A stretch of DNA of 64,000 nt from the IMG/VR virus record IMGVR_UViG_3300029554_000001; one strand, given 5' to 3'. The notes beneath the pieces are model-generated. The model had not been told where the DNA came from. It was given only the letters and a program-made list of their open reading frames with translations, and did not search any database. Both the position numbers and the translations under genes were made by a program. Positions 36,844-64,000 of the stretch are shown piece by piece; the stretch's first letter is position 1; each line of letters opens with the position of its first letter. Origin of the DNA: a virus.

Positions 36844-36963
36844 TCAGACATGAAAGAAAAGCGGATGAATACCAATGAGAATTGTGAATTCGTCCAAAAA
36901 AATATAGAAAGAGAGGTACAACAATGTATAATTCTTAAGCAAAAAAGCAATGCAAAAGCATAG

Positions 36964-37701
36964 ATGAATACATTAAAGCAACCGATGGAGATTGTAAAAA
37001 ATATAGATATAGACCTTAATAAGAGGACAATTTTTTTAGATGTAGATGATGTTTTGTTAGATAGTTCAGCGGCAGTAGTAGCTATTTTAAATTAGCGTTA
37101 TGGTTTAAATAAGACTTTAGATGATTTGGTTGACTGGGGATACAAAAGTATTTATAGAAATTTAACTAAAGAACAAGTTAGTGAAATTTACGAATCAGAA
37201 AAATTTTGGTCATTAGTAAAGCCTAATGAAATATTAATGAAAGCTTTAGAAGATTCCGAAGAAGATGAACAAGGAATCTGGCGACAATATAATTGGATAT
37301 TACTTACCAAAGGCTCAAAAGAATCACTACAGAAGAAGCTTGATTATTTAAATAAGATTCCGTTTTTTAAACGTAATGAATCGAAATGGCGGTATTTTGG
37401 ATTAGGTCATGGAGAGAAGAAAGAAGATGTTCATATGTTAGGACGGATTCAAATTGATGATAATTATAGCTTTCTTAATAGAACTGATGCAGATTTAAAG
37501 ATTCTGGTAAGGAATGGTAAAGAGACAAGATTTAATCGACCTAAAGTTGAGACAGAAAATCTTGAAAATTTATATATTGTAGATAATATTTCACAAGTTT
37601 TTGAAATTTTAGAATTTATAACAAAATTAGATACTGAAGATATTGACCTTGATGGTTTTGATATTATGGATATGATTACTGAGGTTAGTCAAATTATTTA
37701 A
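36964..37701 (+). CDS. HAD-superfamily 5'(3')-deoxyribonucleotidase-like protein (NT5C-like), one in-frame TAG
   Basis: Motif I FLDVDDVLLDS; TAG at 37093 joins this N-terminus to ORF 37126..37701 in the same frame; the frame is also open upstream through TAG 36961 to ATG 36865/36850, so the start is uncertain. Confidence 0.6.
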
Positions 37702-37726
37702 AATTCCAGCGAAGGAAGGTAACTAA

Positions 37727-39735
37727 GTGCGTTTATTTTACACCGTTAAGCTTAACAGTGCATTAATTAAAGAAAACGGCTATAATTTAGACATTAGTTT
37801 TCAAGATTGTTTAAAGAGTAATCTAATTGTTTCTTTAGCAGATAGTCAAATGCTAAAGAGTATTCGTGATATAACTGGTTAGAAGATTGATAGAGTCCAG
37901 CTTGAGGAATGGTACTCTGAAAGAGATAAATTAAAAAAAGGAAAAAACAGCAAAAATAATAGGGATAGAATTAAAGAGCTACAAAGAAAAATCTATAACA
38001 TGATGTTTATACCACAGTATATTACTGTAAGCATGGAAAATGTTAAATCTTATCGAGATATCTATGAAAATGGTTTTTCTTTTACTATTGATTGTGGAGA
38101 GCCTATTATTAAAACTGTTAAAAATAAAGATGGTTTAAATGAAGACATAGTTATCGGTTACGAGAAAGTAACGTATCATTATAAACGTTTATCTTGTTCA
38201 GCATCTCAAGCACGAGTAAGCACAGTAGTTTTTTGTGAAGAAACTATTTTGTCAGAATTAAAGAGAAGGCTTGATAATGGACGTAATATGGATGATTACA
38301 AAATCGCCCCTAGTAAGTATAATGCATATTTTGGTTTATATTCGAGTGCAATAAAAGAAGTTACCAAACCAAGATTTTGTATAATTCCAGATTATTCAGA
38401 AGTAAGACCTGTTGATGTTGATTTTGTGATTGAACAACCAGCAGACCAAGATGATATTGTCGAAGAAAGAACAGTAGACGTTGAATTTAATATGGTCGAT
38501 GGTTCTGGTTTAATTAGTCCTCAAATGGCTGAACAATGGGGAAAAGACCTTGAAGAAGATTATACTCCTTGTCAATTTTGTATCCGCTGTGCTTTCACAA
38601 AAGGGGCTGTAAATGAATTTGATTTTGTTGACTGGTGTAAAGAACTTAACAACGAGAATTATTTAATTAAAGATGTTTACGGCAACTATGTAGATGTAAG
38701 AAATATTGATGTTATTCTTACAGAAGGTATGGCAAAACTTTGGAGTGCTTGGGGTTCTCAAGAAAGTTTTGAAGAAAATTGTCAAAAGAATGGTATCATT
38801 TGGGGAGTAACCAAATATGCTCCTAAACAAGACAAAGAAGTAAATACAGCAAATTATCAATTTTTGCAAACTTTAAATCTTACGCCAGAAATGGTAAAAG
38901 ATGTTTGTAAACTAACAGTTGATTATATTCAAGGTGTAAGTTATGATAATATTTATTACACTTTATTATTCCTTCTTGGCGAAAATTTGACTCAAGATAA
39001 TATTGAAAATTATATGAAATCAAGCGATAATTATTGGTTAAAGTCTCTTGTTTTAAATAATTCTTTGTTATATGATAAATATTCTAAAGAAAAAGTAAGA
39101 GATTTTATTATTAGAAAAATTGAACTTGCTTGTCTTGGAAAAATTATGGTTCATGGTAATTTTCAATGTATTGTAGTTGATGGGTATGCTTTTATGCAAG
39201 CTGCTACTGGTCAAAAAGTAACTGGTTTGTTAAATGCAGGAGAAATGTATTCGCAATTTTGGAATAAGAGAAATGTTACTAAAGTAGACACAATGCGTAG
39301 CCCACTCACTCATTTTAGCGAGCACTACCCTGTTGAATTAAAGAATACAGAAGAAATGAAAAAGTGGTACAAGTACAGTTATAGTGGAGTAATTGTTAAT
39401 TGCCACGATGCACATACAATGCATTGGGCAGGAAGTGACTATGACTATGACATTATATTTACTTGCGATAATCCAAATTTTATTAATGGTGTTTATCCAG
39501 ACCAAAGAGTAGTAACTTACAATGCTAAAAAACCTCACAAAAAGCCAGCGAGAGAAATGACTGATTTGGATTTGTATAATACTGATACATTCAGTTTTGG
39601 TACAAGAATTGGTCAAATTACCAATATTTGTTCTACATTTGTTGGTATGTTACCTTTGTTTGAAAAAGGTAGTAAAGAAGAAAAATTGTTGCAAGATAGA
39701 GTTAGGTCGTGTTGTGCGGCTCAATCGAGACAGAT
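37727..39735 (+). CDS. RdRP-family (YonO/QDE-1-like) single-subunit RNA polymerase, exon 1
   Basis: GTG after GAAGGAAGG; TAG at 37880 in frame; ordered motifs TMRSPLTHFSEH, AGSDYDYDIIF (DxDxD) and CAAQSRQI- parallel R.P..hp.d, GGDlDGD and aVD..KtG of two-barrel RdRP-like polymerases. Confidence 0.7.
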
Positions 39736-40928
39736 TAATTAAATAGTCTGGCTATTTGGTAACAAATAGAAAAATTTACATGGTGAACCTATAAATATAG
39801 GGTGTCATTCTCACTTTTGGAATTATAGGAAATGATAATTAAGAGAATGGCTAACAGGGGAAGCCTAAGTTGTTTAATATGGTAATCCTGTGGTAGAAGA
39901 ATTGTTTAATTATAAAAGAAAGGAGGAAATTCAATGGGTGGATGGAATTTTATTGATAGAACTGGAATGACCTTTGGAAAATTAAAAGTACAAAAGTATT
40001 TAGGGAATAAAAAGTGGTTGTGTCACTGTGAGTGTGGAAATGATTGTATTGTTAATTCAGATAATCTTCCCATTAACGGCAAAAGAAGAATGACAAAATC
40101 TTGTGGCTGTTTGAAAGAAAGTCGCCTAATAAAGAATTTAGATTTCTTTGATGTTATTGATACTGAAGAAAAGGCTTATATTTTAGGATTTTTAGCCTCG
40201 GATGGGTGTGTTACTTATAATGAAGAAACAAAATCTTATTATATAAAAGTAGTTGTTAATTCAATTGATAGAGATTTACTAATACAATTCAAAAAAGCTT
40301 TTGGAACAAAAGCAGAAGTGAAAATTTTTAAAACATTTACACACTTACCCCAAGGTGGCGAATGTGAATCTGAAATGAGTAGTTTGTTATTATGCAGTAA
40401 GCATTTAACTAAACAATTAATAAAATATGGAGTAACACCAAAGAAAAGTTTAACTCTTGATATTGATTATTCTCTTGTTCCAGATAATTTAAAGAGACAC
40501 TTTTGGAGAGGCTTGTTTGATGGTGACGGAACTTTTGGGCTTTTTGGTAAGAAAAAACTTTTAGAGGTTAGTTTGACTACATCAAAAAATATGGCTGAAC
40601 ATACAAAAGAAGAAATCCTTAAGTTTTTTCCAGAAAGTAAAATTGGATGTTATTTAAGAAAAGAATGTTCTGGTAACACTTACAACATGATTTTCACTAC
40701 TCAAAAAGATGGGTTAAATTTTTTATCTTATATGTATGAAAATAGTAATATAAGATTAGAAAGAAAATATCAAAAATATTTAGAAATTAAAAACAATTCT
40801 TAAACTCAAACGACTATCCCGAGAGGGAGTACATTTAAGGTGAAATTCCTTATTTGGAAGTGCCATGCTCCTTGTTTACAAGGATGAAGATATAGTCTAG
40901 CCCTTTAAGGAAACTAAAGGTAGTAGCG
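39736..40928 (+). mobile_element. group I intron (boundaries +/- a few nt) carrying a LAGLIDADG ORF
   Basis: Joining 39735 (U) to 40929 (after a G) restores AAQSRQ-I-DKTKIG in frame; the 3' core CAAACGACTATCCCGAGAGGGAGTA ... GATATAGTCTAG is shared with the two terminase introns. Confidence 0.6.
39934..40803 (+). CDS. LAGLIDADG homing endonuclease (double-motif)
   Basis: AAAGGAGG SD; motifs YILGFLASDGCV and FWRGLFDGDGTF; no TAG codons. Confidence 0.85.
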   Translation: MGGWNFIDRTGMTFGKLKVQKYLGNKKWLCHCECGNDCIVNSDNLPINGKRRMTKSCGCLKESRLIKNLDFFDVIDTEEKAYILGFLASDGCVTYNEETKSYYIKVVVNSIDRDLLIQFKKAFGTKAEVKIFKTFTHLPQGGECESEMSSLLLCSKHLTKQLIKYGVTPKKSLTLDIDYSLVPDNLKRHFWRGLFDGDGTFGLFGKKKLLEVSLTTSKNMAEHTKEEILKFFPESKIGCYLRKECSGNTYNMIFTTQKDGLNFLSYMYENSNIRLERKYQKYLEIKNNS

Positions 40929-41835
40929 AGATAAAACCAAGATTGGCGAAAATGTTAAAGCAGAAGCAACAATTTGGAAACAATATCAACATATAAATCC
41001 AGAAGATTCTCCAGAAGAAATTAAAAGGAAAGAATTTCTTAATTCTCTCTTAGCTGATAAAAAGCCTTATTTTTTCCGATACAAATATAACACTTTAAGT
41101 AAAGAATACAATGAATTTGTTAAGAAAAACGACCAAGATTGCCAGCTTAGATTTGCTTGCTCTTTAAAAGAGTTGTTAGCTAAAGATGAGAATTTATTAA
41201 ATGAAAGTCAAAAAGAATTTATTAGATATTATAAACATTTTCTTCCTGTGGTTGATTCTAATTGTGTGATGAATCAAATTTGTAAATATATTGAAAATGT
41301 TGATTTCCATATTAGAGAAAAAGTACGTTCTTCTCAAAACTTTGATTATCATACTTTAATGTCTGATGGTTTTGTAATTAATAAAAAGATATATGAACAA
41401 ATTAACGATTTAGTATCAAGTAGAATTAAGGAATGGGCAGCTAAAAGAACAGAAAAAGTTCTTGACGGAGCATTTGCAAGTAAGACAGTAAATCCAAGCA
41501 AGGTTCTTGATAGAGATTTAGAATATAATATTTTAAGACAAGATTTATTAACTAATATTTGTTCTAATGAAGAACAATTAGCAAACCATTTAATATATTT
41601 ATTTTATGTAGATAAACAGTCTTATAACAAGAATATTCTTTGGGCTTTAGTTGGAAGACAAATATACGAGAATATAAGAAAAAAGACCTCTGTTTATTAT
41701 TTTCCTCAAAAGAATCCTAATGGTTCTTTAGAGTTTTTATATGAGAAGTATTCTATTGAAAGAGTGCTTGTAAGTCATGAAGAGGAAATTGAAGAAGAGG
41801 AAAAAGGTATAAAGGAGGAATCTTTTTATGATTGA
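40929..41835 (+). CDS. RdRP-family RNA polymerase, exon 2
   Basis: Frame open from 40921; DKTKIGENV...LADKKPYFFRYKY...; ends TGA 41833-41835 (ORF 41173..41835 is its tail). Confidence 0.65.
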
Positions 41836-42862
41836 CATTTATGATGAAGAGGGTTATATTCAGGAAGTTCTTTAGAATGGTTTTTCTCAAAAATGGTAGA
41901 GAGATGCTGCTTTATTGGTAAAGTATTTTAAAACAGAATATGCACTTGGAAATTAGCCTTCTTGGAATAAAGAATGGGTTAAAGAAACGATTAAAGAAAA
42001 GTGTAAAAAGTATGTACCAACTTATGACCCTAATGTAACTTTTAATAGAGTTAATAAGTTGGTAGATACAACTTGGAAGAATTGGAAAGTTGACCCTGAT
42101 AACCTAAAAGAATCATCTTAGCTTAGGAAAATAAAAGAGATAAAAATTCCCGAAGCGGTATTGAACTGGTTTTTAAATCTTGATACATATTATATAACAG
42201 ACGAAGAAGTAAAAGATATTAAATCAAGGCGTAAGAATGTTAGTGTAAAGAATCACCCAATTACAATGGCACGAGCTAAATATTTATTTACTTTATATGT
42301 ATGGACAAAAATTTAGGAAAACTATTTAAGTAGACCTAATATACATTATCTTGAGAAATATAATAAGAAGTTAAGAAATGATGCTGATTTAAAGCCAAGT
42401 TTTTCTCTCACGAAAGAAAGAAACGTATTATTTGATTTAGGATTCATAGATATAAATCATGGACTTGGAGTAACTCCTATATTTATGGACAAAGAGGATT
42501 TCAAAGAAGCGGAGAAAGATGAAAAGGTAATTTTATTGGGTCGGAATGACCTCTATTTGTGCGGAAAATGGCTTGAAATGAGGAAATTCGGAACTTTTAA
42601 GTGTCAAAAATGTCGGAAATTATTGCCACGTTCGGCAAATAAAAGAGGTTAGCCAAGAAAATATTGTGAAGAATGTGCAAAATCTTTGAAAACACATACT
42701 AACGAAAAATATTATTGCATTAATTGTGGAAAAGAAATTGAACATAATAGTGTAACATAGAGAATTCATAAACGTTGCGCAACTTGTCAAGACCTTTATC
42801 GTAAAATGAAAGACAGGGAAAGAAAAAGAAATTTGGAAAATTCCACAAATAAGGCGATTTAA
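41828..42862 (+). CDS. hypothetical protein with C-terminal zinc-ribbon pairs; seven in-frame TAG codons
   Basis: ATG overlaps the upstream TGA; 344 codons free of TAA/TGA but with 7 TAG; CQKC...CEEC...CINC...CATC. Confidence 0.65.
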
Positions 42863-43970: not shown

Positions 43971-43983
43971 TATAGGTGATACA

Positions 43984-44829
43984 ATGACAAGATTTAGATT
44001 GATTAAAGCAATTATGGAGGAAACAGGATATGATAAAGAAACTGTTTCTAATGTAATTGAATCTTTAGAATACAAAATCCTTGACACCATTGCAATGGAA
44101 GATTAGCTGGATTTTGTGTTTGGTTCTATTTATGGGACTACCAAACCATCTCATAAAATTACAGGATATGTTTCGATGCTCCCTGAAATTAGAAAACAAA
44201 AAGCTTGGTCTTCTGCCTTTTTAGGATATCCAATGATTAAGTTTAGTAGAGAGGCTAAGAATTGTGATAGAGTTTATGCAAATGAATTCTTTGCTTGGCC
44301 TGAAAATAGATATACTTCGTTAGCTAGGAAGTATAGACAAGATGTTGGAGACCCTGAAATTCCAGAATACGAAGGTTTATCTGAAGAAAAAATTCAAGAG
44401 TTGTGTCAAAAAGCGGATGAAGAGAAAAAAGGTCCTCAGTCTCCCCATCAAAAAGCAAGAGAGGCGAGCAACGAAAGAAAAAGGATTAAACATCAAGAAG
44501 CTCGTCATGCTTTAATGAGGCAAATGGACTTAGAAAAACAAAGAGAAAATGGAGTTCCCGAGGAAGATTTGATTGAGCGACCATTTGAAGATATTTTAGA
44601 AGACATGAAAGCTGAATGGTGGCAAACTCACGAAGATTTTCAAAAAAACTGGAAACCATATTTAGCCGACCCTGAAAAAGTCAAGGAAAGGCAAGCTGCT
44701 CGTTTGCAACATGCAAAAGAGCATAAAGAGTGGATGAAACGACAAGCTGAACTCAAAAATAAAAGAAACGAAGTTTGGCAAGGAGAAATTAACGATGACG
44801 GAATAGCAGTTGAGAAAAACGACGGTTGA
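43984..44829 (+). CDS. protein with an HU-like N-terminal fold and a long charged C-terminal region; one TAG
   Basis: ATG 43984 after AGGTGA; TAG 44104 joins MTRFRLIKAIMEETGYDKETVSNVIESLEYKILDTIAMED to ORF 44116..44829 in frame. Confidence 0.6.
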
Positions 44830-54823: not shown

Positions 54824-54902
54824 TAAATAAACAATTAAGCAATTTAATTTGTTTTTAAATCTTTGATTATGAAATCTTTGATTATGAAAAGGAGATTTTA
54901 TT

Positions 54903-56582
54903 ATGGCTGATATTTCTAAAATTAAGCTTGCAAATGGCACTACTGTAACTATTAAGGATGCTCAGGGTCGTGCTGATATGACTACTATTCTTGGTGGTCA
55001 CGCTCTTGAAGCTCTTGGTGCTGCCGCATGGCAAGCTATGGCTGCTAGTATTTCTGATGCTGGTATTGCTGACGCTGCTACTGTTAAGGCTTATGTTGAT
55101 TCTCAGGTTGGTCAGATTCATAACTTTGATGTTGTAATTGACCCTACTGGTACTACCGCTGGTCCTTCTGTAGTTGCTTCTGCCGATACTATGTACAAAA
55201 TTTATCTTGTTCCTTCTGAGGATGCAGCAGCGGGTGGCTATATTGAATATATTACTATTCGTTCTGGCGCAGAGGGTGCTTATACTTACACTTGGGAAGC
55301 TATTGGTAATACAAAGGTAAGCCTTACTGGTTATGTTCCTACTACGACCACTATTGCTACCATTGCTCTCGACCACAATATTACTGTTGCTGAACTTCAG
55401 ACTGCTCTTAAGCTTGGTGCAATGGCCTATGCTGATAAGGCTTCTGGTTCTGGCACTCTTCAGACTATTGACAGTATCACCATGAAGGAAGTTACTGTTG
55501 CTGGTAACGCCGCTGTTACTTCTAAGGCTGCTGATGCTACTCTTACTAAGGCTAACTATACCCCTGCTGGTAAGGTTACTGGCTCGGCAATTTCTGATGG
55601 TTCTATTAATGTTACTTTGAAGGATTCTGCTACTAAGACCGAGGCAACTCTTAGCACCTCTGAGTTCACTCCTGCTGGTACTATCGCCGCTAAGGAGGGT
55701 GGTTCTTTCTCCGCCCTGAAGACTGCTGCTTTTGGTGCTGCTGAGGACGGTGTTCAGATTGAGGGTACTGTCAGTGCTCCTGCAATTTCTCTTACTGCTG
55801 CTGATAAGACTTTTGCTACTGGTTTGACTGGTGGTAAGGCTGCTTCCTTTACTGAGGGTGCTTTTACTCCTGCTGCAATTCAGGACGGTTTCTATACTGC
55901 TGGTAAGGCTGCTGCTTGGACTGGTGCTGATTATACTGCTCCTACCATGGGTGAGGCTTCTAAGGCAAAATTCGCTTCCGAGGGTATTGTTGTCGATGTT
56001 GGTTCTGGTGATGACGCTGAAACTTTGATTTTCTCTGCCGCTGGTACTGCTGATGCTGTTACCGCTCAGGGCGCCTTTAACGCTGGTAATGTCGATTTTG
56101 GTACTTTCAATGGCGGTTCTGCTACTGTTATTGATACTACTAAGTTCTCTGGTGGTTCTAAGGCTGCTGACACCTTCACTCCTAATGAACTTCAGTCCGT
56201 TACTACTGGCAAGGTAAGCGAAGTTTCTGCTGCTGAGCTTGCCAATGCTCCTGTATTCACTGGTAGCAAGTATGCTGTTGCTACTACGGCCGATACCGCT
56301 CTCAAGGATGTTGCCTTCACTGCTACTAATAGTGCTACTATTGTTGACAAGGTTGAGTATGTTAAGCCTGAGATTGATGCTGCTACCTTCACTGGTACTG
56401 CTGCTACTCTTGGCTTTGTTGGTACTGAGGTTGTTGATGCTCTTGTCACTGGTGTTAAGTACGATAAGGCTGATGCTACTGCTGCCTTTAGCGTTGCTGT
56501 CACTCCCGAGACTGACGTTATCACTAAGACTGCTAAGACTGTTGAGATTGAGGTCTCTCCTGTCGCTAAGGCTGGCGAGTAA
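54903..56582 (+). CDS. Ala/Thr/Gly-rich abundant structural protein (fibre- or decoration-like)
   Basis: 559 aa, TAG-free, marked shift to GC-richer GCT/ACT/GGT codons; internal [FY]TPAG repeats; N-terminus MADISKIKLANGTTVTIKD shared with 56622 and 57045. Confidence 0.7.
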   Translation: MADISKIKLANGTTVTIKDAQGRADMTTILGGHALEALGAAAWQAMAASISDAGIADAATVKAYVDSQVGQIHNFDVVIDPTGTTAGPSVVASADTMYKIYLVPSEDAAAGGYIEYITIRSGAEGAYTYTWEAIGNTKVSLTGYVPTTTTIATIALDHNITVAELQTALKLGAMAYADKASGSGTLQTIDSITMKEVTVAGNAAVTSKAADATLTKANYTPAGKVTGSAISDGSINVTLKDSATKTEATLSTSEFTPAGTIAAKEGGSFSALKTAAFGAAEDGVQIEGTVSAPAISLTAADKTFATGLTGGKAASFTEGAFTPAAIQDGFYTAGKAAAWTGADYTAPTMGEASKAKFASEGIVVDVGSGDDAETLIFSAAGTADAVTAQGAFNAGNVDFGTFNGGSATVIDTTKFSGGSKAADTFTPNELQSVTTGKVSEVSAAELANAPVFTGSKYAVATTADTALKDVAFTATNSATIVDKVEYVKPEIDAATFTGTAATLGFVGTEVVDALVTGVKYDKADATAAFSVAVTPETDVITKTAKTVEIEVSPVAKAGE

Positions 56583-56621
56583 TTAGGAATTTCAATTACA
56601 AGTAGCTTAAGGAATTAAGCT

Positions 56622-56738
56622 ATGGACATTTCTAAGATAAAGCTTCCAGATGGTTCTACCTATGAGATAAAAGATGAGTATTTGCGTCATGCAATTATGG
56701 TGCTTTTAGGATTAGAAGAACCTAATTCTGAAAAATGA
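56622..56738 (+). CDS. 38-aa ORF MDISKIKLPDGSTYEIKDEYLRHAIMVLLGLEEPNSEK
   Basis: AAGGAA SD; it duplicates the N-terminal module of the neighbouring genes and may be a remnant. Confidence 0.4.
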   Translation: MDISKIKLPDGSTYEIKDEYLRHAIMVLLGLEEPNSEK

Positions 56739-56826
56739 TACAATACCGAGAGAGAGATGGAATGTCTTTCTCTCGGTATTAAAACAATAAAAACAATTTT
56801 TTATTATTACAATTTAACAAAGAAAC

Positions 56827-56889
56827 AAAAAGAGCTGTATTTATGAAATCTATCTTTTTAAATTTAGATTTTATAAATATGCTCTTTTT
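56827..56889 (+). terminator. long hairpin plus T-run
   Basis: AAAAGAGC...TTTAGATTT...GCTCTTTT followed by TTTA; a second hairpin ATACCGAGAGA/TCTCTCGGTAT lies at 56743-56779. Confidence 0.55.
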
Positions 56890-57044
56890 ATGTTATATAC
56901 ATACATTTATAATATAAATTGATATACATGTAATATAAGAAGAACATAAAATTAACCTAACCAATTAGTAATACTGGTTAGATTTTTGATTTGTCTACGA
57001 TGTACAGGTGGATAAATTTGAAAAACATTAGAAAGGAGACAATA

Positions 57045-57428
57045 ATGGCTAATATTAGTAAAATCAAATTACCGAATGTGGGTACTCCATATAACATAGC
57101 TGATAGTACTGCTCGTAGTACTGCTGTTCAAGCAGCAACAGATGCTGAAACAGCTCTAACAACTGCTAATGAAGCTAAAACTGCGGCCTCTAATGCCCAA
57201 AGCACTGCTGATAGTAAAACAGCGAATTCTATTACTATGAATGGTAGTTCTAATGCTAATCCTACTTTCTATGCACCAACAACCGCTGGTACAAACGGTT
57301 ATTTTTTAAAAAGCAATGGCTCTGGAGCTCCAACGTGGGAGGCAATGAGTAGTGGTCCAGACATTGTAGTTAGTAGCTCTCAGCCCTCTGGTCAGAAGAA
57401 CGGAGATTTTTGGTATCAAATAGTTTGA
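57045..57428 (+). CDS. fibre-like protein, N-terminus MANISKIKLPNVGTPY, C-terminus NGDFWYQIV
   Basis: ATG 57045 follows AAAGGAG (the track TTG start at 56991 is unlikely); Ala/Thr-rich coiled segment. Confidence 0.6.
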   Translation: MANISKIKLPNVGTPYNIADSTARSTAVQAATDAETALTTANEAKTAASNAQSTADSKTANSITMNGSSNANPTFYAPTTAGTNGYFLKSNGSGAPTWEAMSSGPDIVVSSSQPSGQKNGDFWYQIV

Positions 57429-57536
57429 TATAAATTAAAAAGACATTACTATAATTAAATGTAATTCTACTTTCGTTTATTATGGGCGTTTACACGAAAT
57501 TATATTTATTTATAAAGAAAGGAGTGACAGCTTTTA

Positions 57537-57821
57537 ATGGTATTTAGGAAAGAAAAAGTAGTCTTTACCGCTGGTGGAATAAGAGAATTTCATGTTCCAT
57601 CCTCAGTTAGCATGGTTAAGCTTGAAGTTAAATCTGGAAGCGTAACGGTAGAAGGAAGGTTAACTCAAGATAGTGACTATGTTTAGATTTCAGGTGTTAA
57701 AGCCGATTTAACTAAGTCAGCGGTCGCTCCCTAGGGAATTACTTCTTTTGAAGTTGCACGGTATCATCAAATACGTTTATCTTATAGCGGTACTGACCCA
57801 GTAATTAGCGTAATGTTATAA
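57537..57821 (+). CDS. hypothetical 94-aa protein; two TAG codons
   Basis: ATG after AAAGGAG; TAG near 57684 and 57732; stop TAA 57819. Confidence 0.5.
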
Positions 57822-57835
57822 GGGAGGGCTGAATT

Positions 57836-58423
57836 ATGGCAAACGAAGCTATCTCTAATATTGCTTTACTGTATAGTATGGCAGCGCTATCTGGTGAAGG
57901 TGGTTCGGGCGGTGGAAGTGGTGGAACCGTATCCGTAAAGGTTCATGCTACATATACTATAGAATCCACAGAAGAAGCGCGAGTAGAAAACGTAGGTACA
58001 GAAAAAGAAGTACAACTTGATTTTTATATTCCTAGGGGATTAGATGGAAAATCCTCTTAGTGGTACATTTCTGATGGCAAACCTCGGTCTGCTGTCGAGG
58101 GAAGTACAGAGGGAGATTTAATTTTATATACTACAGGAGATGTTTATAAAGTAATAAATGGAGTTCCTGTAGACCAGCATCTTAGTTTAAATGTAGGACA
58201 AAGTGATGGTCCATACACTTATGCTGTAAAAGCTGGATTCAAAGGTAGTGAAGAAAAATTCCAAGAACTCTGGTTAGCATCGTTAAATAGTGGATATACC
58301 AACTCCATACTGGACGGTGGCGAAAGCGATTTCTCTGAATTTAATGTTCAGAATGACGGCGGTGAAGGAGACAGCAAGACTCATCATCTCAGAGTAGACG
58401 GAATAAATGAATTGGACGATTGA
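57836..58423 (+). CDS. fibre-associated protein (Gly-rich linker, LDFYIPRGLDGK motif); one TAG
   Basis: ATG after AGGGAGGG; TAG 58058 extends ORF 57836..58060 to TGA 58421. Confidence 0.55.
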
Positions 58424-58868
58424 TAAGTGACTGTGTAATTGTTCTATGAAGGCATGAGGTACAGATAAGTACAGTTTTGAAGTCTGAGAACAATAAGCAC
58501 GAATCTTTCGATGAACAAGTATTTATATATTGAGTAAGAATAGTTAGATATTTTTAACAATTGTTAAGAATTAAAAACGTGATTTTATTTGGTTATAAAC
58601 CACAAGATATAGGGGTGTTAATTTTACAACAATACCATATATGGTAGTCATCGCGTCTGACAATTTCTTGCTCAAAAATATTTGTATTATTATTTATAAA
58701 CCTATGAATATAGTAGGTTTGTTTGTGTATTCTTATACACGCAAAGCCCATTACACAGGGGCTTTAATATTAATGGGAGACCTCCAATTATGCAAGAAAT
58801 CTTGCAGAAATAGGGCATGATTGGGGGTAAATAGATGCGTTTTCGTTGCAGGAAAACGCCGATTAAAC

Positions 58869-59354
58869 ATGAGTGTTCAAGTTGTTAACTCTGGAGGGTC
58901 TGACCCGAAATTGGGCGCATTCAGTGTAAAGTCAACGAAAATAATAGCAACATAGCTCGCTTCTTCATATAATCTTGAGGGTTTTAGTCAAGTAACCGTG
59001 AATCCAGTACAAATTTATAATGTAATTAGCACCGCAACTTATAGCACAGACGCATGGAATTCTTATAAAGCAACATGTACTCTTCCATATTAGGTGACTA
59101 AAAACTCAATTTGGCGGATTTTTTGGAGCTTTTGGGGAAAGGTAACTGTTTCTTCCTATGAAACAAACCAAGTTTGTGGTATTTTCATCCCTGACTCAAA
59201 TATTAATATATCTGTTATGAGTTGGGGCAGTATGGGGTTTAATTCCATTTATATGGCTAATGGATATACCAATAGTTTTACTATAAATGTAGTCAATAAC
59301 GGTACAATGTAGGTAGAAAGTGGCAATAACACCTTTGTTTATGTAATATATTAA
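58869..59354 (+). CDS. MSVQV-family fibre/RBP paralogue P (161 aa); three TAG codons
   Basis: ATG AGT GTT CAA GTT; the frame links to ORF 59094..59312 and on to TAA 59352. Confidence 0.55.
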
Positions 59355-59378
59355 CGTTGCGTCCAATTGCCAATATGC

Positions 59379-60449
59379 GTGTCAGTTCAGGTAGTCAATT
59401 TTAGTGGAGCTGGAGCGGATGAAATTTTAACTATTAATGATATTGAGCCAAGTGGTAGTATGCGTTCTTTTACTAGTAAAAACGGAGGGTACAGTAAAGT
59501 TATTATTCCAAAAAGTACACTTCCTCTTTTTTCTTTGGTTAATAGTTATTCTAATAACAATATTAATTATTCTAGTCTTTTATGCAATATAACAGAAAAT
59601 AATTATATTGTCATTCGGTCATACGGTGACTGTTATTGCTTTTTTAATAATAAATTATAGCTTACAAAACTGTCTAATGAAATGCCAGAAATAAAAGATA
59701 TTTCAGCATGGATTTATGGTCAAGCAGTAGCATTTGGAAATGGTAAAATTGTTATTACATTAAGGATGTCTCCTTTTAGTGGAGGAGATAGTGAATATCT
59801 CGGAATAGTTATTTTTAATTATAATTCTTCTACTGGTTTTTCTTTTTACAAAAGTTATAAACATACATCATTAGGTGGACAAGGAATACACCGCCTTTGT
59901 TATTTTAATAATAAATTTTATATGTCTGTTGATTCAACTTATAAATTATACTCTTCCAACAACGGGGAAAATTTTTCAGAAGTATCCGCAATTACTGAAA
60001 ATTGTTTAAATTTAGATTGCAATTCTTCTTATTTGTTTGTCAGAACACCATATGGGCTAAATTATTCTACTGATGGAACCTCGTTTTCTTTGTTAAGTAA
60101 TACTAATAATATGTATATTAATAATGTAATTTGTAGCGATATTGTTGCCGTAGAAGTGAGAGAAAACGACATGTCTGTGTGGAAACAATTTCAAAATGGA
60201 ACTTTAACTAATATTTTATATTCATACAATGGATATTACCATGAATTTAGATAGTATGGGAATTATTAGTTAATATTTATTACAAATCAATATTTTTTAA
60301 TAATTAAAAACAAAAATACTGGCGAATCAATACAAAAAAATTATATGTATGGCAATTTTGCTACAACTCCTGTAATAAATAATAAAATTTTTTTTGCTTA
60401 TGGTTCCAGAGGAATATCAGTGTTAGATTTAAGCTTTATGCAAATATAA
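59379..60449 (+). CDS. MSVQV-family RBP paralogue Q with a C-terminal BNR/Asp-box beta-propeller-like domain; three TAG codons
   Basis: GTG TCA GTT CAG GTA start; TAG 59658 joins ORF 59367..59660 to ORF 59682..60254; Asp-box-like YSSNNGENFS and YSTDGTSFS; TAG 60252 and 60267 extend it to TAA 60447. Confidence 0.55.
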
Positions 60450-60471
60450 TGTAGCAATAAAATGCCAGTAT

Positions 60472-61113
60472 GTGAGCGTACAGGTAAAATCATCAGGTTC
60501 ATCACCAACATTGCAATCTCGTACTGTTACTCCTTCAAGTTCTACTCAATATATTACACCTCAAAGTCGGTATGACGCTTTGAATTAGGTTACTGTATAG
60601 GGAGATAGTAATTTGGTTAGCTCTAATATTAAGAGTGGCGTTAGTATATTTGGAGTTAGTGGAAGTTTAACACAAGGGAAACAAGTTTTTGTAACAAATA
60701 ATTCTAATGCCTCTACTGCTATGTAGGAAAACATTACTTTTACATTTGATTATAATTTAGCACAATTTTCTAGCAGTATTCCTTATTATATAGGAGTAAA
60801 CCGTCAAGCGGCTGCATCGTTTGTTCGGTCAACAAGCCCAGATGATTTAACAGTTGAAAGTTTTTCTTACTTAGGATTTGAAGTTTCTCCTTATGTAACG
60901 GGGTGTTTATTAACAACAGTAGCTCAATATAATCCACAAACAACTTACATTGAAACTCATATTATAGGACGGACTCTAAACTCTTTAGAATGGACAATAA
61001 ATAATTACACTTTAACTTTAAAAATAGCAAATTACACTCCTTCTACAAAATTGTTATTTTTAGATAATAAACTTACTAAAAATTCTTCTTATATATGTAC
61101 ATTAATTTTTTAA
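60472..61113 (+). CDS. MSVQV-family RBP paralogue A; three TAG codons
   Basis: GTG AGC GTA CAG GTA start; LQSRTVTPSSSTQYITPQSRYDALN-Q-VTV-Q-GDSNLVSSNIKSGVSIFGVSGSL parallels 61624..62364. Confidence 0.6.
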
Positions 61114-61137
61114 TTTGAAAGGAGGAATATACGACAT

Positions 61138-61461
61138 ATGGCAACAACTAAAAACATTCTCATGAAGCAAAAAAATTCTTCTGATTATGATACTATTTAT
61201 CCTATTACAGAAGAAACTTATACAAATGTTACCATGACTAGTGGCGGTTGGAGTAGCTCTTAGTATAGCTTTGAGGATACTTATCCTAATGCAAAGTATA
61301 ATATTTCTGTATCCGTGGCAAGTACGGCAAGTTCTGCTCAATTCGATGCTTTCGGTAAAGCTAAAATTGTTGGTAATGCAACTACTAATGTCGTTAAAGC
61401 TTTGGGAACAGTTCCTACTGTTGATATACCTGTAATGTTAAAGATTACTAGGAAGGGTTAA
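61138..61461 (+). CDS. 107-aa fibre-module protein, paralogue of 62361..62690; one TAG
   Basis: ATG after AAAGGAGG; TAG 61261; MATTKNILMKQKNSSDYDTIYP...SAQFDAFGKAKI...KALGTVPTVDIPVMLK. Confidence 0.6.
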
Positions 61462-61623: not shown

Positions 61624-62364
61624 TTAATTTGTTACTATGGCATATAAATAAGTCATTTCTCCTCCAAATGTATAATACCCAGAATAATTCACCGTAAGAA
61701 TACCATCTGATAATTGATAACTAAATTCTATTCCAAAGGATATTGCCTCATCCCGTTTTGCCATAAAAAATTTATTAGAACCTGAAACAACAGAAGAATA
61801 ACCAGCTACTATAAGTTCTCCATCATAAGGTTTTTCTTGCGCTAAAAGTACAACAAATAATATATTTTCATTAGAAGTAATGCCAGAAACGGGAATTGTC
61901 AAACTTGTTGAGCTATTACTATTAAAATAGGCTCCGTAATATCCTTTTTGTCCAGTTCCGCCACTAGATAGACTTCCATTCACGCCAAATATACTAATAC
62001 CAGATTTAATATTTTCTGAGATTAGATTGGAATCTCCATACACATACACCCCACTTAATCCACTATATCCAGAAGAAGGTGTAATGTTTTGCGGGTAAGA
62101 AGCGGGAGTTACATATTGGGTTGATTGATTATTTGTTCTGGCTGTAACAGAAGATAGTCCACTATACCCTGAATCTGGAGACACTGTGGCAGAACTTGAA
62201 GAAAGAGTTACAGATTTACTCTGTAAATTAGGTTTTACAGTTATAGAAGACATTCCATCATAACCAGATTGCGGTGAAAATGTAGTTGCTGAGGTAGATG
62301 TAAGACTAACGCTTCTTGATTGAAGATTAGCTCCTCCACCTTGAGTAAGGACTTCTACGCTCAT
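61624..62364 (-). CDS. MSV[QE]V-family RBP paralogue B
   Basis: ORF track; three tandem LQS[RK]SV[ST]L.S.SAT..P.SGY.G[ML]SS[IV]T modules, then GDSNLISENIKSGISIFGVNGSL; its ATG overlaps the upstream TGA (ATGA). Confidence 0.7.
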   Translation of the reverse strand: MSVEVLTQGGGANLQSRSVSLTSTSATTFSPQSGYDGMSSITVKPNLQSKSVTLSSSSATVSPDSGYSGLSSVTARTNNQSTQYVTPASYPQNITPSSGYSGLSGVYVYGDSNLISENIKSGISIFGVNGSLSSGGTGQKGYYGAYFNSNSSTSLTIPVSGITSNENILFVVLLAQEKPYDGELIVAGYSSVVSGSNKFFMAKRDEAISFGIEFSYQLSDGILTVNYSGYYTFGGEMTYLYAIVTN

Positions 62365-62690
62365 ACTTTATTCACCACCTTTAAAACAACGGGAATGTCT
62401 GTTGAGATTGGAACTGTGCCTAAAGCTTTAATTGTATTAGAAGTAGATGAACTTCCAATTTTAGCCTTTGTAAAAGCATCAAACTATGTAGATGTAGCTG
62501 TAGATGATACAGAGATGGATAAATTATATTTGGAATTCGGATAGTCGGATTCAAAACTATATGCTCCACTTGACCAAGATGCTCCATAGAGTGTGTAATT
62601 AACATATTGAACTGGTGGGCTGAATGGATATAATTTATCGTAAGACCGAGAATCATTCTTCTGTTGGATGAGAACATTCTTGTCAGCCAT
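62361..62690 (-). CDS. 109-aa fibre-module protein, paralogue of 61138..61461; one TAG
   Basis: ORF 62484..62690 continues through TAG 62484-62486 to TGA 62361; ...TST-Q(TAG)-FDAFTKAKI aligns with ...SSA-Q(CAA)-FDAFGKAKI. Confidence 0.65.
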
Positions 62691-62856
62691 AATTGACTCC
62701 TTTCTATGTATATAAGTATAGAATTAAAAAGTATTATTAGTTTGATAGTTTTTAATTTTATAATATTAAATGCATATATTAAAATAAATGATATTAATGG
62801 GAAAACAGGTGCGTTTTGTGCTATATTTAATTGGGCAGTTTAAAGCAACTCATCTT

Positions 62857-63474
62857 TTAAATAAATAAAGTCATTTCAACCTAGCTCGCTGTTATTGTAT
62901 TGTAATACCAAGTATTATAAATTCCCCTACTTTCAAAACTAAGTATTATACCATTATCAGTAAGCTATCCCCGTTTGTATATGACAGACATAATAGCTTG
63001 TAAATTAGTATAACTATAATCATATAAGGGATAATTGGTATATATTCCCGATGGTGTTAAATTTCCAGTGCCAGAATCATTATACAACCCACAATTAATA
63101 CCAGAATACATTAATATTCCACTTTTTATTGGAGAGCTTGGAAAAGCCACAAATAGAGCAATCCCGCACAATTTCTTAATATATGATAAATAACTATTAT
63201 CCCAAGCATATTGATAGTTACTACCCGTTGATTGAGTTCCATTATTAAAGTTTAATGTTGGGGTTTTATAATAATTAGACCCATCATAAGTAAAAGTAAC
63301 GTTCTTAAAAGAGAAAAACGTATAGCCATAACTATTACTCTATAAACTAACACTAGATAAACCATCATAACCAGAATCAGGTTGTATAAATTGCGAATAT
63401 AAAAAACTAGAGTATGCTACTTTTGATTGTAATTTAGGTTCAGAACCACCAGAACTAGCAACCTAAACACTCAT
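62857..63474 (-). CDS. MSVQV-family RBP paralogue Y (205 aa); TAG at codon 4 and four more
   Basis: ATG AGT GTT TAG GTT = M-S-V-Q-V; contains ORF 62965..63171 in frame; QPDSGYDGLSSVSL module; stop TAA 62857. Confidence 0.6.
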
Positions 63475-63502
63475 TTAGATTTAGGCATTAATAGACAACT
63501 AT

Positions 63503-64000
63503 TTATATATAAAAATAAGCAGTTCCTGTTCTTTGAAGAGAAGAAAAATTGGCAAATTGCTAATACATATCAGTAGACATACCCCAAGAAAATGACAAAG
63601 TAGAAGAGGGCAAAGAAGAAATGGATATGCCTGTATCAAGTCCGTAATAAACAGTCGTATTATTGTTAATAGTAGCATTAATACCACAATTTCCAGAATG
63701 GATTGCCGTGAGAATCGAACCTGACTCTATCCAAGCAACATCCCATTCACAAGCATAAAAACCAAATGCACTAAAGCTTGTACTATTACTTTGTTGCCAC
63801 AATGAAATTGTAGCAGCATAGACAAAAGGGAAATAAGAAGTTGTGAAAGAATAAGGAATAGGTATAGATATAGAAACCATATACATCTATCCAAACCGAT
63901 TTAAATTTTCTTGCTAAACTGTTTCTTGCGAAGAAGTCCAAGATAAATCTGTTTTCAGTTTTTCTACTCCTTTGTAATTACCTATCACACCAAAAATATT
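63503..64000 (-). CDS. C-terminal part of a further fibre/RBP paralogue (5' end outside the window); several TAG codons
   Basis: The frame containing ORF 63560..63886 is free of TAA/TGA from 64000 down to TAA 63503; it begins NIFGVIGNYKG, matching the [IV]SIFGV.GSL segment of the paralogues. Confidence 0.5.

What the first reader, a model, noticed from the sequence alone, without database searches (positions are those of the whole stretch)
36850..64000. TAG is a sense codon (most likely Gln) in the rightward and right-end genes, while the leftward block stays standard-code compatible
Almost every rightward gene from 36.9 kb onward is chopped by TAG in the six-frame track, yet is continuous and free of TAA/TGA when TAG is read. 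Examples: 7 TAG in 344 codons of 41828..42862; 4 in 45844..47487; 6 across the terL exons; 4 in the endolysin. Conserved domains are restored across TAG codons, including HAD motif I to the rest of the nucleotidase, the RNA polymerase N-terminus, the PG-binding domain of the endolysin and the terminase nuclease. Paralogue alignments give the likely identity. M-S-V-TAG-V (63465-63463) aligns with CAA or CAG in three paralogues (58878, 59388, 60481). TST-TAG-FDAF (62486-62484) aligns with SSA-CAA-FDAF in 61138..61461. All genes in this window that I annotate as complete end in TAA or TGA. Stop-codon recoding of late genes in gut phages is already described in the literature. What stands out here is the clean partition: about 65 leftward genes with no TAG, against pervasive TAG use in the polymerase, lysis, packaging and fibre genes. 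I found no suppressor tRNA or release-factor gene in this window.
Basis: partly seen in the sequence, partly recalled or inferred. Interest (0 to 1): 0.7.

Follow-up and report, generated by a model that had tools for sequence, protein, structure and literature searches.

The report
Amber codon read as glutamine
This stretch of a roughly 215 kb gut phage reads the TAG stop codon as glutamine in its late genes, an already described phage trick, but TAG also begins a family of tiny genes inside the supposedly standard-code early block.

Summary
The core observation holds. From 36.8 kb onward, genes are interrupted only by TAG, never by TAA or TGA. Reading TAG as sense raises coding density there from 0.56 to 0.83. 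The left block does not change (0.78 to 0.79).

Four independent lines identify TAG as glutamine:
- codon swaps with IMG/VR relatives, where TAG exchanges with CAA/CAG;
- a Codetta-like test on homing endonucleases (Q +10.5 bits, next best K +2.5);
- a standard-code syntenic relative that reads through all 20 comparable sites, most often with Q;
- unchanged third-codon-position variation downstream of TAG.

No gene ends in TAG. This is the published "code 15 late genes" pattern (Borges et al.), here in an SPbeta-like phage with a YonO-type RNA polymerase.

The "clean partition" is overstated. Nine of 32 right-block units have no TAG. The left block carries 14 in-frame TAGs. One sits in a 275-codon gene. 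Thirteen sit in nine tiny ORFs that have a ribosome-binding site, start ATG-TAG, and each face a near-consensus antisense promoter, which resembles type I toxin-antitoxin cassettes.

No tRNA was found in the window or in about 62% of the genome as sampled through relatives. The decoding agent is therefore unidentified.

The parts
3650..36800 (-). Leftward block of about 58 ORFs of at least 40 codons. Apart from the two TAG-containing exceptions listed below, they are TAG-free and end in TAA (52) or TGA (6). The content looks like early or anti-defence genes: AcrIC5, two PcfJ, DUF932, SprT-like, GP88 and DUF6551/ParB-like. Strand assignment between 28.6 and 31.4 kb is ambiguous.
36815..36843 (+). 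Near-consensus sigma-70-type promoter (TTGACA-17-TACAAT with TG) at the head of the rightward HAD-RNAP operon. This is a consensus match only.
36964..37701 (+). HAD/NT5C-like nucleotidase with 1 in-frame TAG at 37093, between motif I and the rest of the domain. The Pfam NT5C hit is below the gathering score. The TAG at 36961 is immediately upstream of the likely start codon.
37727..39735 (+). YonO-type single-chain RNA polymerase, exon 1, with TAG at codon 52 (37880-37882). Clade B and the standard-code relative L126 have Gln at this site.
39736..40928 (+). Intervening sequence absent from relatives with 97-99% identical RNAP. It carries a TAG-free LAGLIDADG endonuclease ORF at 39934-40803. 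Exon 1 ends in T and the insert ends in G, as group I introns do. There is no Rfam hit.
40929..41835 (+). RNA polymerase exon 2, with no TAG. The spliced protein aligns at 40% identity over 965 aa with the polymerase of Bacillus phage BUCT082 (Spbetavirus).
41828..42862 (+). Gene with a zinc-ribbon-rich C-terminus carrying 7 in-frame TAG in 344 codons. TAG makes up 64% of its Gln-type codons. A 344-aa standard-code orthologue exists in L126.
44795..45568 (+). Endolysin (CHAP plus PG_binding_1) with 4 TAG. Two of them lie inside the PG-binding domain match.
45844..47487 (+). 547-codon gene upstream of terL with 4 TAG. Three of them are CAA/CAG in clade B, and two are Q in L126.
47487..51614 (+). 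Large terminase in three exons: about 47487-48010, about 49062-49417 and 50586-51614, with 6 TAG in total. It is split by two inserts carrying GIY-YIG endonuclease ORFs. The first (48336-49055) has 6 TAG in the open frame, 5 counted from the first ATG at 48408. The second (49857-50570) has 5 TAG.
51660..61461 (+). Fibre and tail-type genes with uneven TAG use: an Mtd_N-like fibre 52456-53895 (2 TAG), a TAG-free run 53912-57428, and fibre-tip paralogues 58869-61113 (3 TAG each).
61624..64000 (-). Leftward fibre-tip paralogues at the right end of the window. 62857-63474 has 4 TAG, 62361-62690 has 1, 63503-63886 has 1 and 61624-62364 has 0.
32346..33173 (-). A large left-block gene with one in-frame TAG at 32559-32561. 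Relatives have TGG or an Arg codon there. The 70-codon tail is conserved at protein level.
28367..28522 (-). 51-codon gene with a strong SD and 3 in-frame TAG (codons 2, 17 and 36). Two of the TAGs are conserved even in clade B, whose copy of this gene is about 70% identical.
29123..30584 (-). Four paralogous 24-codon hydrophobic ORFs with SD at 29123-29197, 29838-29912, 30057-30131 and 30510-30584. The consensus is M-[TAG/K]-K-I-I-S-V-N-Y-x-L-N-V-V-x-V-x-I-L-K-N-Y-N-F. Three have TAG at codon 2 and one has AAG.
11112..26765 (-). Five further SD-led ATG-TAG tiny ORFs of the same style: 11112-11192, 19953-20024 (2 TAG), 20148-20228 (2 TAG), 25467-25538 and 26694-26765.
11022..30673 (+). Eight + strand TTGACA-17-TAxxxT promoters with extended -10, at 11022, 19852, 25369, 26614, 28290, 29035, 29763 and 30418. 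Each fires antisense into the tiny ORFs. Plus-strand terminator-like hairpins lie at 11268, 20290, 25602, 29256 and 30650. The predicted antisense RNAs are about 225 nt long.

Best explanation
The window is about 30% of a roughly 213-220 kb SPbeta-like phage of gut Firmicutes that uses genetic code 15. TAG is translated as glutamine, and TAA and TGA are the only terminators.

The large leftward genes (anti-defence and host-takeover type) avoid TAG, so an unmodified standard-code host ribosome can translate them. The polymerase, lysis, packaging and fibre genes need TAG decoding to be made full-length. TAG therefore acts as a translational gate that holds back late functions until the cell's decoding has been changed. 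The late-gene RNA polymerase itself is gated, through codon 52.

The same gate is used inside the early block. Nine tiny SD-led ORFs begin ATG-TAG and are each overlapped by an antisense RNA, in a type I toxin-antitoxin-like layout. Under the standard code they would give only a start-stop. After the switch they would give 23-51-residue peptides.

Shown: TAG is sense and equals Gln, TAG is absent as a terminator, and the distribution of TAG along the window.
Inferred: the timing of gene expression, the regulatory purpose of the gate, and the agent that decodes TAG. That agent is most likely a phage suppressor tRNA(CUA), but none was found.
For: TAG is sense:
- Only TAG interrupts ORFs. Coding density rises from 0.56 to 0.83 in the right block and from 0.78 to 0.79 in the left.
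- Pfam and PHROG domain matches and a 965-aa alignment to the BUCT082 RNAP run across TAG codons.
- The third-position share of variable sites is 0.58 downstream of TAGs and 0.56 upstream.
- The standard-code syntenic relative L126 aligns over 2,991 aa with no in-frame stop.

TAG is Gln:
- In relatives, window TAG aligns with TAG or CAA/CAG first, with the same replacement profile as window CAA/CAG.
- A reciprocal swap occurs in the RNAP between codons 41 and 52.
- The Codetta-like score over 115-120 homologues below 60% identity is Q 10.5 bits and K 2.5, with all other residues negative.
- L126 has Q at 6 of 20 TAG sites, its most frequent residue there.
- L020 has Gln at the position of 53851-53853.

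TAG is not a terminator: 0 of 94 called genes end in TAG.

Partition:
- Fisher p = 1e-12, computed on the 4 left-block TAGs known at that stage.
- In relatives, left-block orthologues carry 0.8 TAG per 1000 codons and right-block orthologues 6.5.
- The CAG share of CAR codons is 0.59 on the left and 0.25 on the right. Window CAG sites become TAG in relatives more often than CAA sites do. Both fit neutral CAG-to-TAG drift only where TAG is readable.

Late character of the right block: the YonO homologue, since YonO transcribes the SPbeta late genes (PMC5467207).

Tiny ORFs:
- SD, conserved peptides and a pooled codon-position pattern of 89/51/139.
- TAG is tied second-commonest (with AAG) as codon 2 among 82 SD-led ATGs on the - strand of the left block, against TAA 1 and TGA 0.
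- Antisense promoters and terminators.

The model itself is published (bioRxiv 10.1101/2021.08.26.457843; proteomic proof of code 15 in crAss-like phages, PMC9523058).
Against: - No suppressor tRNA, and indeed no tRNA at all, was found in the window. None was found in flanks and relatives that together cover about 62% of the genome.
- No release-factor or synthetase domain appeared among the proteins scanned.
- The host is unknown. Genome searches gave only 31-33% relatives on MAG contigs, so 'standard-code host' is inferred from homologues in Bacillus, Clostridium and Enterocloster phages.
- Expression timing was not measured.
- The gate is leaky as a rule. Nine right-block units lack TAG. 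One large left-block gene has TAG at a site where relatives have Trp or Arg, which could simply be a recent mutation.
- An apparent preference for C after TAG was not reproduced outside the window.
Confidence: 0.88

Rival explanations
1. TAG keeps its stop meaning most of the time and is only partly read through by leaky or programmed read-through. Full-length late proteins would then be minor products, and TAG would tune dosage rather than switch the code.
For: No decoding agent was found in about 62% of the genome. Some TAGs sit very near gene ends or starts. A and C, the weaker termination contexts by my own knowledge of Poole et al. 1995, follow TAG in about 61% of 99 cases against about 48% background.
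Against: Genes with 4-7 TAGs (41828-42862, the endolysin, terL, the GIY-YIG endonucleases) would give negligible full-length product at ordinary read-through rates. Essential single-copy genes (terL, RNAP) are affected. No gene at all uses TAG as its terminator. TAG interchanges freely with CAA/CAG between close relatives.
Confidence: 0.06
2. TAG encodes an amino acid other than glutamine, such as Lys, Glu, Tyr, Trp or pyrrolysine.
For: Lys and Glu are the next most frequent partners of TAG in relatives. In the left block, TAG pairs with TGG at four sites.
Against: Gln is first in every test. Lys and Glu are also the usual replacements of genuine Gln codons. The TGG-TAG pairs are single G-to-A steps, confined to the TAG-poor block, and one of those sites is Arg in other relatives. 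No pyl genes or Pyl-type tRNA were seen.
Confidence: 0.03
3. The TAGs are damage: pseudogenes, a defective phage population or assembly error.
For: The sporadic left-block TAGs at Trp codons in single relatives could be such mutations.
Against: Only one of the three stop codons is involved. The same TAG positions recur in many independent assemblies from different samples. Purifying selection continues downstream of the TAGs. The affected genes are essential.
Confidence: 0.01
4. The host itself decodes TAG as Gln, so no switch occurs. The left block would lack TAG for another reason, such as recent acquisition from standard-code sources or different mutational bias on the opposite strand.
For: The host is unknown and no phage tRNA was found. 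Off-frame TAG is also rarer on the left-block coding strand, 1.0% against 2.0%.
Against: No bacterial lineage with TAG=Gln is known to me. The published recoded phage clades infect standard-code Firmicutes and Bacteroidetes (bioRxiv 10.1101/2021.08.26.457843). TAG avoidance in left-block orthologues persists across clades that differ by 30-40%. Within the left block, TAG is concentrated at codon 2 of one ORF family, which looks selected rather than a by-product of composition.
Confidence: 0.02

Closest known systems
[quoted passage not shown]
   Same: TAG is read as Gln. Early genes are compatible with the standard code, while lysis, structural and packaging genes are recoded. Recoded modules are spread over a roughly 200 kb genome, as described for Jade, Sapphire and Agate. 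Intron homing endonucleases are heavily recoded, as reported for Agate. The suppressor tRNA is often undetectable; that paper found one in only 40% of TAG-recoded genomes.
   Different: I could not place this phage in any named clade. What is specific here is the SPbeta-like backbone, with a YonO-type RNAP that itself carries a TAG, and the use of TAG as codon 2 of tiny antisense-covered ORFs in the early block. The sections of that paper I read do not mention the latter.
SPbeta-like phages (Spbetavirus: SPbeta, phi3T, BUCT082) and Clostridium phage c-st
   Same: YonO-type RNA polymerase, 40% identical over 965 aa to that of BUCT082. An HU-like gene lies downstream of it. The right flank has Pfam YonB and YonD_N proteins and a serine recombinase. 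SPbeta carries type I toxin-antitoxin loci (PMC5848175).
   Different: Those phages use the standard code and are 125-186 kb. This lineage is about 215 kb, comes from gut metagenomes, and is recoded in three related clades. More distant relatives (L126, L013, L014, L092-L095) are standard-code.
Type I toxin-antitoxin systems of Firmicutes (bsrG/SR4, yonT/SR6, Fst; reviews PMC6563280, PMC6562991)
   Same: A short hydrophobic ORF with a strong SD is overlapped by a convergent, strongly promoted, structured antisense RNA of about 100-250 nt ending in a terminator. Such loci are often phage-borne and present in several copies.
   Different: There is no sequence or Rfam match to any known family. 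The peptides are short, 23-26 residues. Nearly all begin Met-TAG, so they cannot be translated under the standard code. Toxicity is untested.

Membership tests
Code-15 (TAG to Gln) recoded phage with standard-code early genes | In-frame TAG, and only TAG, in conserved genes. Coding density rises when TAG is read as sense. | tested here: met
Code-15 (TAG to Gln) recoded phage with standard-code early genes | TAG positions align with glutamine in homologues. | tested here: met
Code-15 (TAG to Gln) recoded phage with standard-code early genes | Recoding is concentrated in lysis, structural and packaging genes, with an early block left readable in the standard code. | tested here: met
   Exceptions: 14 TAGs in the left block, 13 of them in tiny ORFs.
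Code-15 (TAG to Gln) recoded phage with standard-code early genes | A phage-encoded suppressor tRNA with anticodon CUA. | tested here: inconclusive
   None in the window. None in loci covering about 62% of the genome of near-identical relatives. About 81 kb remains unscanned. ARAGORN at relaxed thresholds gave only junk.
Code-15 (TAG to Gln) recoded phage with standard-code early genes | Accessory code-change genes (release factor 2, an aminoacyl-tRNA synthetase). These are optional in the published clades. | tested here: inconclusive
   No such Pfam hit among 52 left-block proteins, 10 right-block proteins, or the precomputed Pfam lists of the flanks. The rest of the genome was not seen.
Code-15 (TAG to Gln) recoded phage with standard-code early genes | The host uses the standard code. 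| not testable with these tools
   The host was not identified. A Firmicutes host is inferred from homologous phages and Gram-positive-type lysins.
SPbeta-like phage | YonO-type single-chain two-barrel RNA polymerase and SPbeta structural-gene families. | tested here: met
   PF05183 and phrog_8308. 40% identity to BUCT082. YonB and YonD_N in the flank.
Group I intron with homing endonuclease (in terL and the RNAP gene) | A precise insertion/absence polymorphism within a conserved gene, a free-standing endonuclease ORF, exon ending in U, and intron ending in G. | tested here: met
Group I intron with homing endonuclease (in terL and the RNAP gene) | A group I ribozyme core recognisable by covariance model. 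| tested here: not met
   No Rfam Intron_gpI match even at E <= 1. The ribozyme class is therefore unassigned.
Type I toxin-antitoxin | A small hydrophobic ORF with SD, overlapped by a cis-antisense RNA that has its own promoter and terminator. | tested here: met
   The promoters and terminators are consensus matches only.
Type I toxin-antitoxin | The peptide is toxic and is neutralised by the RNA, or the locus belongs to a described family. | not testable with these tools
   No Rfam or PHROG match. Toxicity requires an experiment.
Pyrrolysine decoding of TAG | pylT/pylS genes, and TAG at positions not interchangeable with Gln. | tested here: not met
   No tRNA-Pyl was found, and TAG interchanges with CAA/CAG.

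The most novel reading that the evidence does not exclude
The code switch does more than hold back late proteins. The phage has placed TAG directly after the start codon of a conserved family of at least nine tiny ORFs in its early block. Each is also covered by an antisense RNA. These peptides, which may be membrane toxins or sensors of the decoding state, would be doubly locked and become translatable only once TAG is read. If the remaining 38% of the genome also lacks a tRNA(CUA), the agent that opens this lock would itself be unknown.
Probability: 0.35. Interest if true: 0.65.

Novelty: new member of a known kind. Interest (0 to 1): 0.4.

Why it matters
For annotation: this phage lineage is represented by dozens of 150-220 kb contigs in IMG/VR and ENA. 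Standard-code gene calling mangles it, fragmenting the terminase, lysin, polymerase and fibre genes.

For biology: it adds an SPbeta-like, YonO-polymerase phage to the list of recoded lineages. Here the late-transcription enzyme sits behind the translational gate.

The unexpected part is the set of ATG-TAG tiny ORFs with antisense partners. They offer a simple experimental handle on whether recoding is used as a timer. A reporter fused after ATG-TAG should light up only after the switch. They may also link recoding to toxin control.

The absence of any tRNA in about 62% of the genome makes this a candidate for the majority of recoded phages in which the decoding agent is still unidentified.

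Tried and rejected
1. Megablast of 49 kb of the window against GenBank phages found no match.
2. The hunt for a suppressor tRNA used all eight viral scans, the metagenome scan and six contig look-ups. It walked from both window ends and tried scattered anchors (TnpB, GIY-YIG paralogues). No tRNA turned up in this lineage. The TnpB anchor led instead to a distant 213 kb relative, L061. That relative has a tRNA array including tRNA(UCA) just upstream of its terL, and its own code could not be decided.
3. ARAGORN at relaxed thresholds and in intron mode returned only implausible structures inside coding regions.
4. A degenerate-pattern search of the collections for tRNA(CUA) was considered and dropped. 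Chance matches would number in the hundreds and the results cannot be filtered by contig.
5. Host identification through prophages gave no close relative. Only 31-33% homologues were found, on ruminant-gut MAG contigs of inconsistent taxonomy.
6. In the window, C follows in-frame TAG in 32% of cases against 11% for other sense codons (p = 5e-6). This was not reproduced in ten recoded ORFs outside the window (8% C). It is therefore not claimed; only a weak A/C excess remains.
7. I tested whether the 70 codons after the TAG in 32346-33173 are coding. Codon-position statistics alone were inconclusive. Protein conservation in relatives settled it.
8. PHROG searches to decide the coding strand at 28.6-31.4 kb and to name the tiny ORFs gave nothing usable.
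9. Apparent TAG-containing left-block ORFs at 20247-20462 and 36613-36765, and several + strand ORFs, were rejected as wrong-frame or antisense artefacts on codon-position evidence.

Full report
WHAT THE WINDOW IS

The window is 34% G+C and has no tRNA genes. It has no close match among GenBank phages.

Its 37727-41835 gene encodes a YonO-type single-chain RNA polymerase (Pfam PF05183, phrog_8308). The best GenBank relative is Bacillus phage BUCT082, a Spbetavirus. Clostridium phage c-st, Enterocloster phages and SPbeta follow.

IMG/VR and ENA hold many relatives on contigs of 150-220 kb, so the window is about 30% of a genome of roughly 213-220 kb. By RNA polymerase protein identity these relatives fall into:
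- clade A, 98-99%;
- clade B, 71-73%;
- clade C, 62%;
- distant relatives, about 31%.

The flanks carry Pfam YonB and YonD_N proteins, a second lysin (Amidase_2 plus SH3_3), a resolvase and more fibre cassettes.

CHECKING THE OBSERVATION

Stop-to-stop ORFs under the standard code are short and broken from 36.8 kb onward. When only TAA and TGA count as stops, the same region tiles with long ORFs that contain TAG but never TAA or TGA.

Coverage by greedy ATG-ORFs of at least 60 codons:

| Region | Standard code | TAG as sense |
|---|---|---|
| Right block | 0.56 | 0.83 |
| Right end | 0.47 | 0.84 |
| Left block | 0.78 | 0.79 |

Reading TGA as sense gives no comparable gain.

No called gene ends in TAG. 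The left block has 52 TAA and 6 TGA, the right block 24 and 8, and the right end 3 and 1. By my own knowledge, low-GC Firmicutes and their phages end roughly 15-20% of genes in TAG, so none in 94 is far from chance.

IS TAG REALLY TRANSLATED?

Four lines of evidence say it is.

1. Domain and family matches run across TAG codons. The PG_binding_1 match of the endolysin (residues 196-247) contains two TAGs. The phrog_8308 match of the polymerase starts at residue 5, upstream of the TAG at codon 52. The terminase PHROG match spans all six TAGs.
2. The spliced polymerase aligns with the standard-code BUCT082 protein over 965 residues at 40% identity, across codon 52.
3. Variable sites between the window and its relatives were classed by codon position. 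The third-position share is 0.58 in segments downstream of at least one TAG and 0.56 upstream of the first TAG. Selection on the reading frame therefore does not stop at TAG.
4. A standard-code relative with the same gene order was found by chance through a GIY-YIG homologue (L126, a Logan contig; RNAP 57% identical, terL 57-70%). It aligns over 2,991 residues without a single in-frame stop, including all 20 comparable TAG positions.

WHICH AMINO ACID?

Codon-by-codon comparison with relatives shows that a window TAG is matched by TAG or by CAA/CAG first. Lys and Glu come next. This is the same replacement spectrum as genuine window CAA and CAG codons. Conversely, TAG in relatives falls on window CAG (8-11% of CAG sites) and CAA (1-4%), and almost never on other codons.

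In the polymerase, clade B has TAG at codon 41, where the window has a Gln codon. Clade B has CAA at codon 52, where the window has TAG.

A Codetta-like score used 115-120 GIY-YIG homologues below 60% identity, which are standard-code proteins. Summed over the TAG columns of the two intron endonucleases, it gives Q +10.5 bits and K +2.5, with every other residue negative.

L126 has Q at 6 of 20 TAG sites, its commonest residue there. The TAG 13 codons before the end of the fibre gene (53851-53853) is a Gln codon in the near-identical L020.

TAG as Gln (code 15) is therefore well supported.

HOW CLEAN IS THE PARTITION?

For large genes the contrast is very strong. The right block has 59 TAG against 220 CAA+CAG. 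At the time of the test, 4 TAG were counted in the left block against 224 CAA+CAG, giving Fisher p = 1e-12. The later full count for the left block is 14.

The contrast is conserved in relatives. Left-block orthologues carry 0.8 TAG per 1000 codons and right-block orthologues 6.5.

Gln codon choice differs too. CAG is 59% of CAR codons on the left and 25% on the right. AAG/AAR and GAG/GAR differ much less. Together with the CAG-biased exchange, this fits CAG-to-TAG transitions being neutral only where TAG can be read. That reading is an inference.

The partition is not absolute, however.

On the right, 9 of 32 gene or exon units have no TAG. These include a contiguous run at 53912-57428 and the LAGLIDADG ORF.

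On the left, gene 32346-33173(-) has a TAG where relatives have TGG or an Arg codon. Its ORF continues for 70 codons that are conserved at protein level.

More strikingly, the left block contains nine tiny ORFs on the - strand, each with a Shine-Dalgarno sequence, that begin ATG-TAG:
- 11112-11192
- 19953-20024
- 20148-20228
- 25467-25538
- 26694-26765
- 28367-28522 (51 codons, 3 TAG)
- 29838-29912
- 30057-30131
- 30510-30584

A tenth paralogue, 29123-29197, has AAG at codon 2.

These ORFs look real for several reasons:
- The peptides are conserved in relatives through conservative changes.
- The ATG-TAG start is kept.
- Further TAG-Q swaps occur within them.
- Pooled variable sites fall 89/51/139 on codon positions 1/2/3.
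- Among 82 SD-led ATGs on this strand of the left block, TAG ties with AAG as the second most frequent second codon (9 each). TAA occurs once and TGA never. In the right block, none of 23 SD-led ATGs is followed by TAG.

Each tiny ORF is faced by a + strand TTGACA-17-TAxxxT promoter with an extended -10 element. These are the best promoter matches in the whole left block. Most of the ORFs also have a + strand terminator hairpin beyond them. Two of the predicted antisense RNAs, each about 225 nt, fold far better than shuffled controls (z -5.9 and -6.2).

This is the anatomy of type I toxin-antitoxin cassettes, which SPbeta also carries (PMC5848175). No known family matches them, though. Their function is inferred, not shown.

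Altogether the left block holds 14 in-frame TAGs, 13 of them in these tiny ORFs.

SPLIT GENES

The polymerase gene is interrupted at 39736-40928 by an insert that clade A relatives lack. Exon 1 ends in T and the insert ends in G. The insert carries a TAG-free LAGLIDADG ORF. The two TAGs at 40921-40926 are inside it.

terL is split by two inserts with GIY-YIG ORFs that are themselves TAG-rich: 6 TAG in the open frame of the first (5 counted from its first ATG) and 5 in the second. L001 lacks the second insert. L126 lacks the first. L003 has an HNH endonuclease instead.

Rfam finds no group I core in any of the inserts. Heavy recoding of an intron endonuclease has been reported before, for the Agate clade (bioRxiv 10.1101/2021.08.26.457843).

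MECHANISM

The evidence fits the published model. Early genes are readable by the host. Late genes require TAG decoding, so the code change times and protects late and lytic functions.

Specific to this phage, the YonO-type polymerase carries a TAG. In SPbeta, YonO transcribes the late structural and lysis genes (PMC5467207). The translational gate would therefore lie upstream of the transcriptional switch. This ordering is an inference.

The left block's content supports calling it early: AcrIC5, two PcfJ, DUF932, SprT-like and GP88. The near-consensus host-type promoter at 36815 ahead of the HAD-RNAP operon would fit transcription of that operon by the host polymerase. Neither point is a measurement.

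The missing piece is the decoding agent. No tRNA of any kind was found in the window or in loci that together cover about 62% of the genome of near-identical relatives. About 81 kb remains unseen. Borges et al. detected a TAG suppressor in only 40% of TAG-recoded genomes. Taking that as a prior, the chance that a canonical one lies in the unseen part is roughly 20% (my arithmetic).

COMPARISON AND NOVELTY

The phenomenon is known: TAG as Gln, the early/late split, recoded lysis, packaging and fibre genes, and recoded homing endonucleases have all been described. Metaproteomics has confirmed code 15 experimentally in crAss-like phages (PMC9523058).

The genome size and inferred Firmicutes host resemble the Jade and Sapphire clades, but I could not test membership. 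The finding is therefore a new member of a known kind.

What I did not find in the sections of the literature I read is TAG placed at codon 2 of a family of antisense-controlled tiny ORFs. That is the part worth following up.

VERDICT

The core is right and the claim of a 'clean partition' is overstated. Interest is moderate (0.4). The recoding itself is ordinary for gut phages. The TAG-led tiny ORFs and the absence of any tRNA in most of the genome add some value.

Noticed in passing
window 11022-30673 (tiny ORFs on the - strand; promoters and terminators on the + strand): Eight repeated cassettes. Each pairs a near-consensus + strand promoter, and usually a terminator, with one or two SD-led tiny hydrophobic ORFs on the - strand. 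This resembles type I toxin-antitoxin loci. Nine of the ten ORFs begin ATG-TAG.
   Followed up: partly
window 30916-30992 (-): Sub-threshold match to the type II hammerhead ribozyme (RF02276): 31.2 bits against a gathering score of 37, E = 0.023. It was the only Rfam match in the window.
   Followed up: no
window 3650-36800 (-): Pfam hits in the left block are AcrIC5 (anti-CRISPR, E = 1.7e-11), two PcfJ, DUF932, SprT-like, GP88/DUF7227 and DUF6551. This set is reminiscent of anti-defence or 'leading-region' genes. Which ORF carries which hit was not resolved.
   Followed up: no
window 58869-63886, and flank L017-L020 at 7049-7756: At least five fibre-tip paralogues share an M-S-V-Q-V N-terminus. 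Two small paralogues (61138-61461 and 62361-62690) accompany them. The paralogues are arranged on both strands, with a serine resolvase gene a few kb beyond the window end. This may be an invertible host-range cassette system. The neighbouring fibre gene 52456-53895 has an Mtd_N domain.
   Followed up: no
window 39736-40928: The LAGLIDADG-carrying insert in the polymerase gene is present in the window but absent from relatives whose RNAP is 97-99% identical (L001, L005). This suggests recent intron mobility.
   Followed up: partly
L061 16510-18087 (IMGVR_UViG_3300045988_170129, 213 kb): A distant relative (terL exon 1 is 41% identical) has a seven-tRNA array immediately upstream of its homologues of 45844-47487 and terL, plus a tRNA-Met at 8569-8639 next to a TnpB gene. 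The array includes a tRNA with anticodon UCA, an opal suppressor. The window lineage has no tRNA at the corresponding place. The genetic code of that relative was not resolved.
   Followed up: partly
L126 179-11731 (Logan SRR33926304 contig): A standard-code phage with the same gene order: HAD, RNAP, a 344-aa gene, HU, a gene like 45844-47487, and terL with a GIY-YIG insert at the same site as intron 2. It is useful as an unrecoded comparator.
   Followed up: partly
window 3650-36800 compared with 36800-61500: Trinucleotide TAG in the two non-coding frames of the coding strand is half as frequent in the left block (1.0%) as in the right (2.0%). CAG is preferred over CAA only in the left block.
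   Followed up: partly
L015/L016 4332-5435 (left flank, ENA contigs): An IS605-type TnpB gene lies about 6 kb left of the window start in the ENA assemblies. It was not found in the clade A IMG/VR contigs, and its closest IMG/VR copies are 72% identical on other jumbo contigs. Plus-strand genes further left again carry in-frame TAG.
   Followed up: no
window 54882-56582: The Ala/Thr-rich fibre-like gene 54903-56582 (+) is TAG-free, uses CAG 9:1 over CAA, and is mirrored by an equally long open frame on the opposite strand. This is probably a compositional artefact.
   Followed up: no
window 498-578 (+): Another SD-led ATG-TAG ORF, 26 codons with 2 TAG, lies outside the left block on the + strand. 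It has no evident similarity to the - strand family.
   Followed up: no
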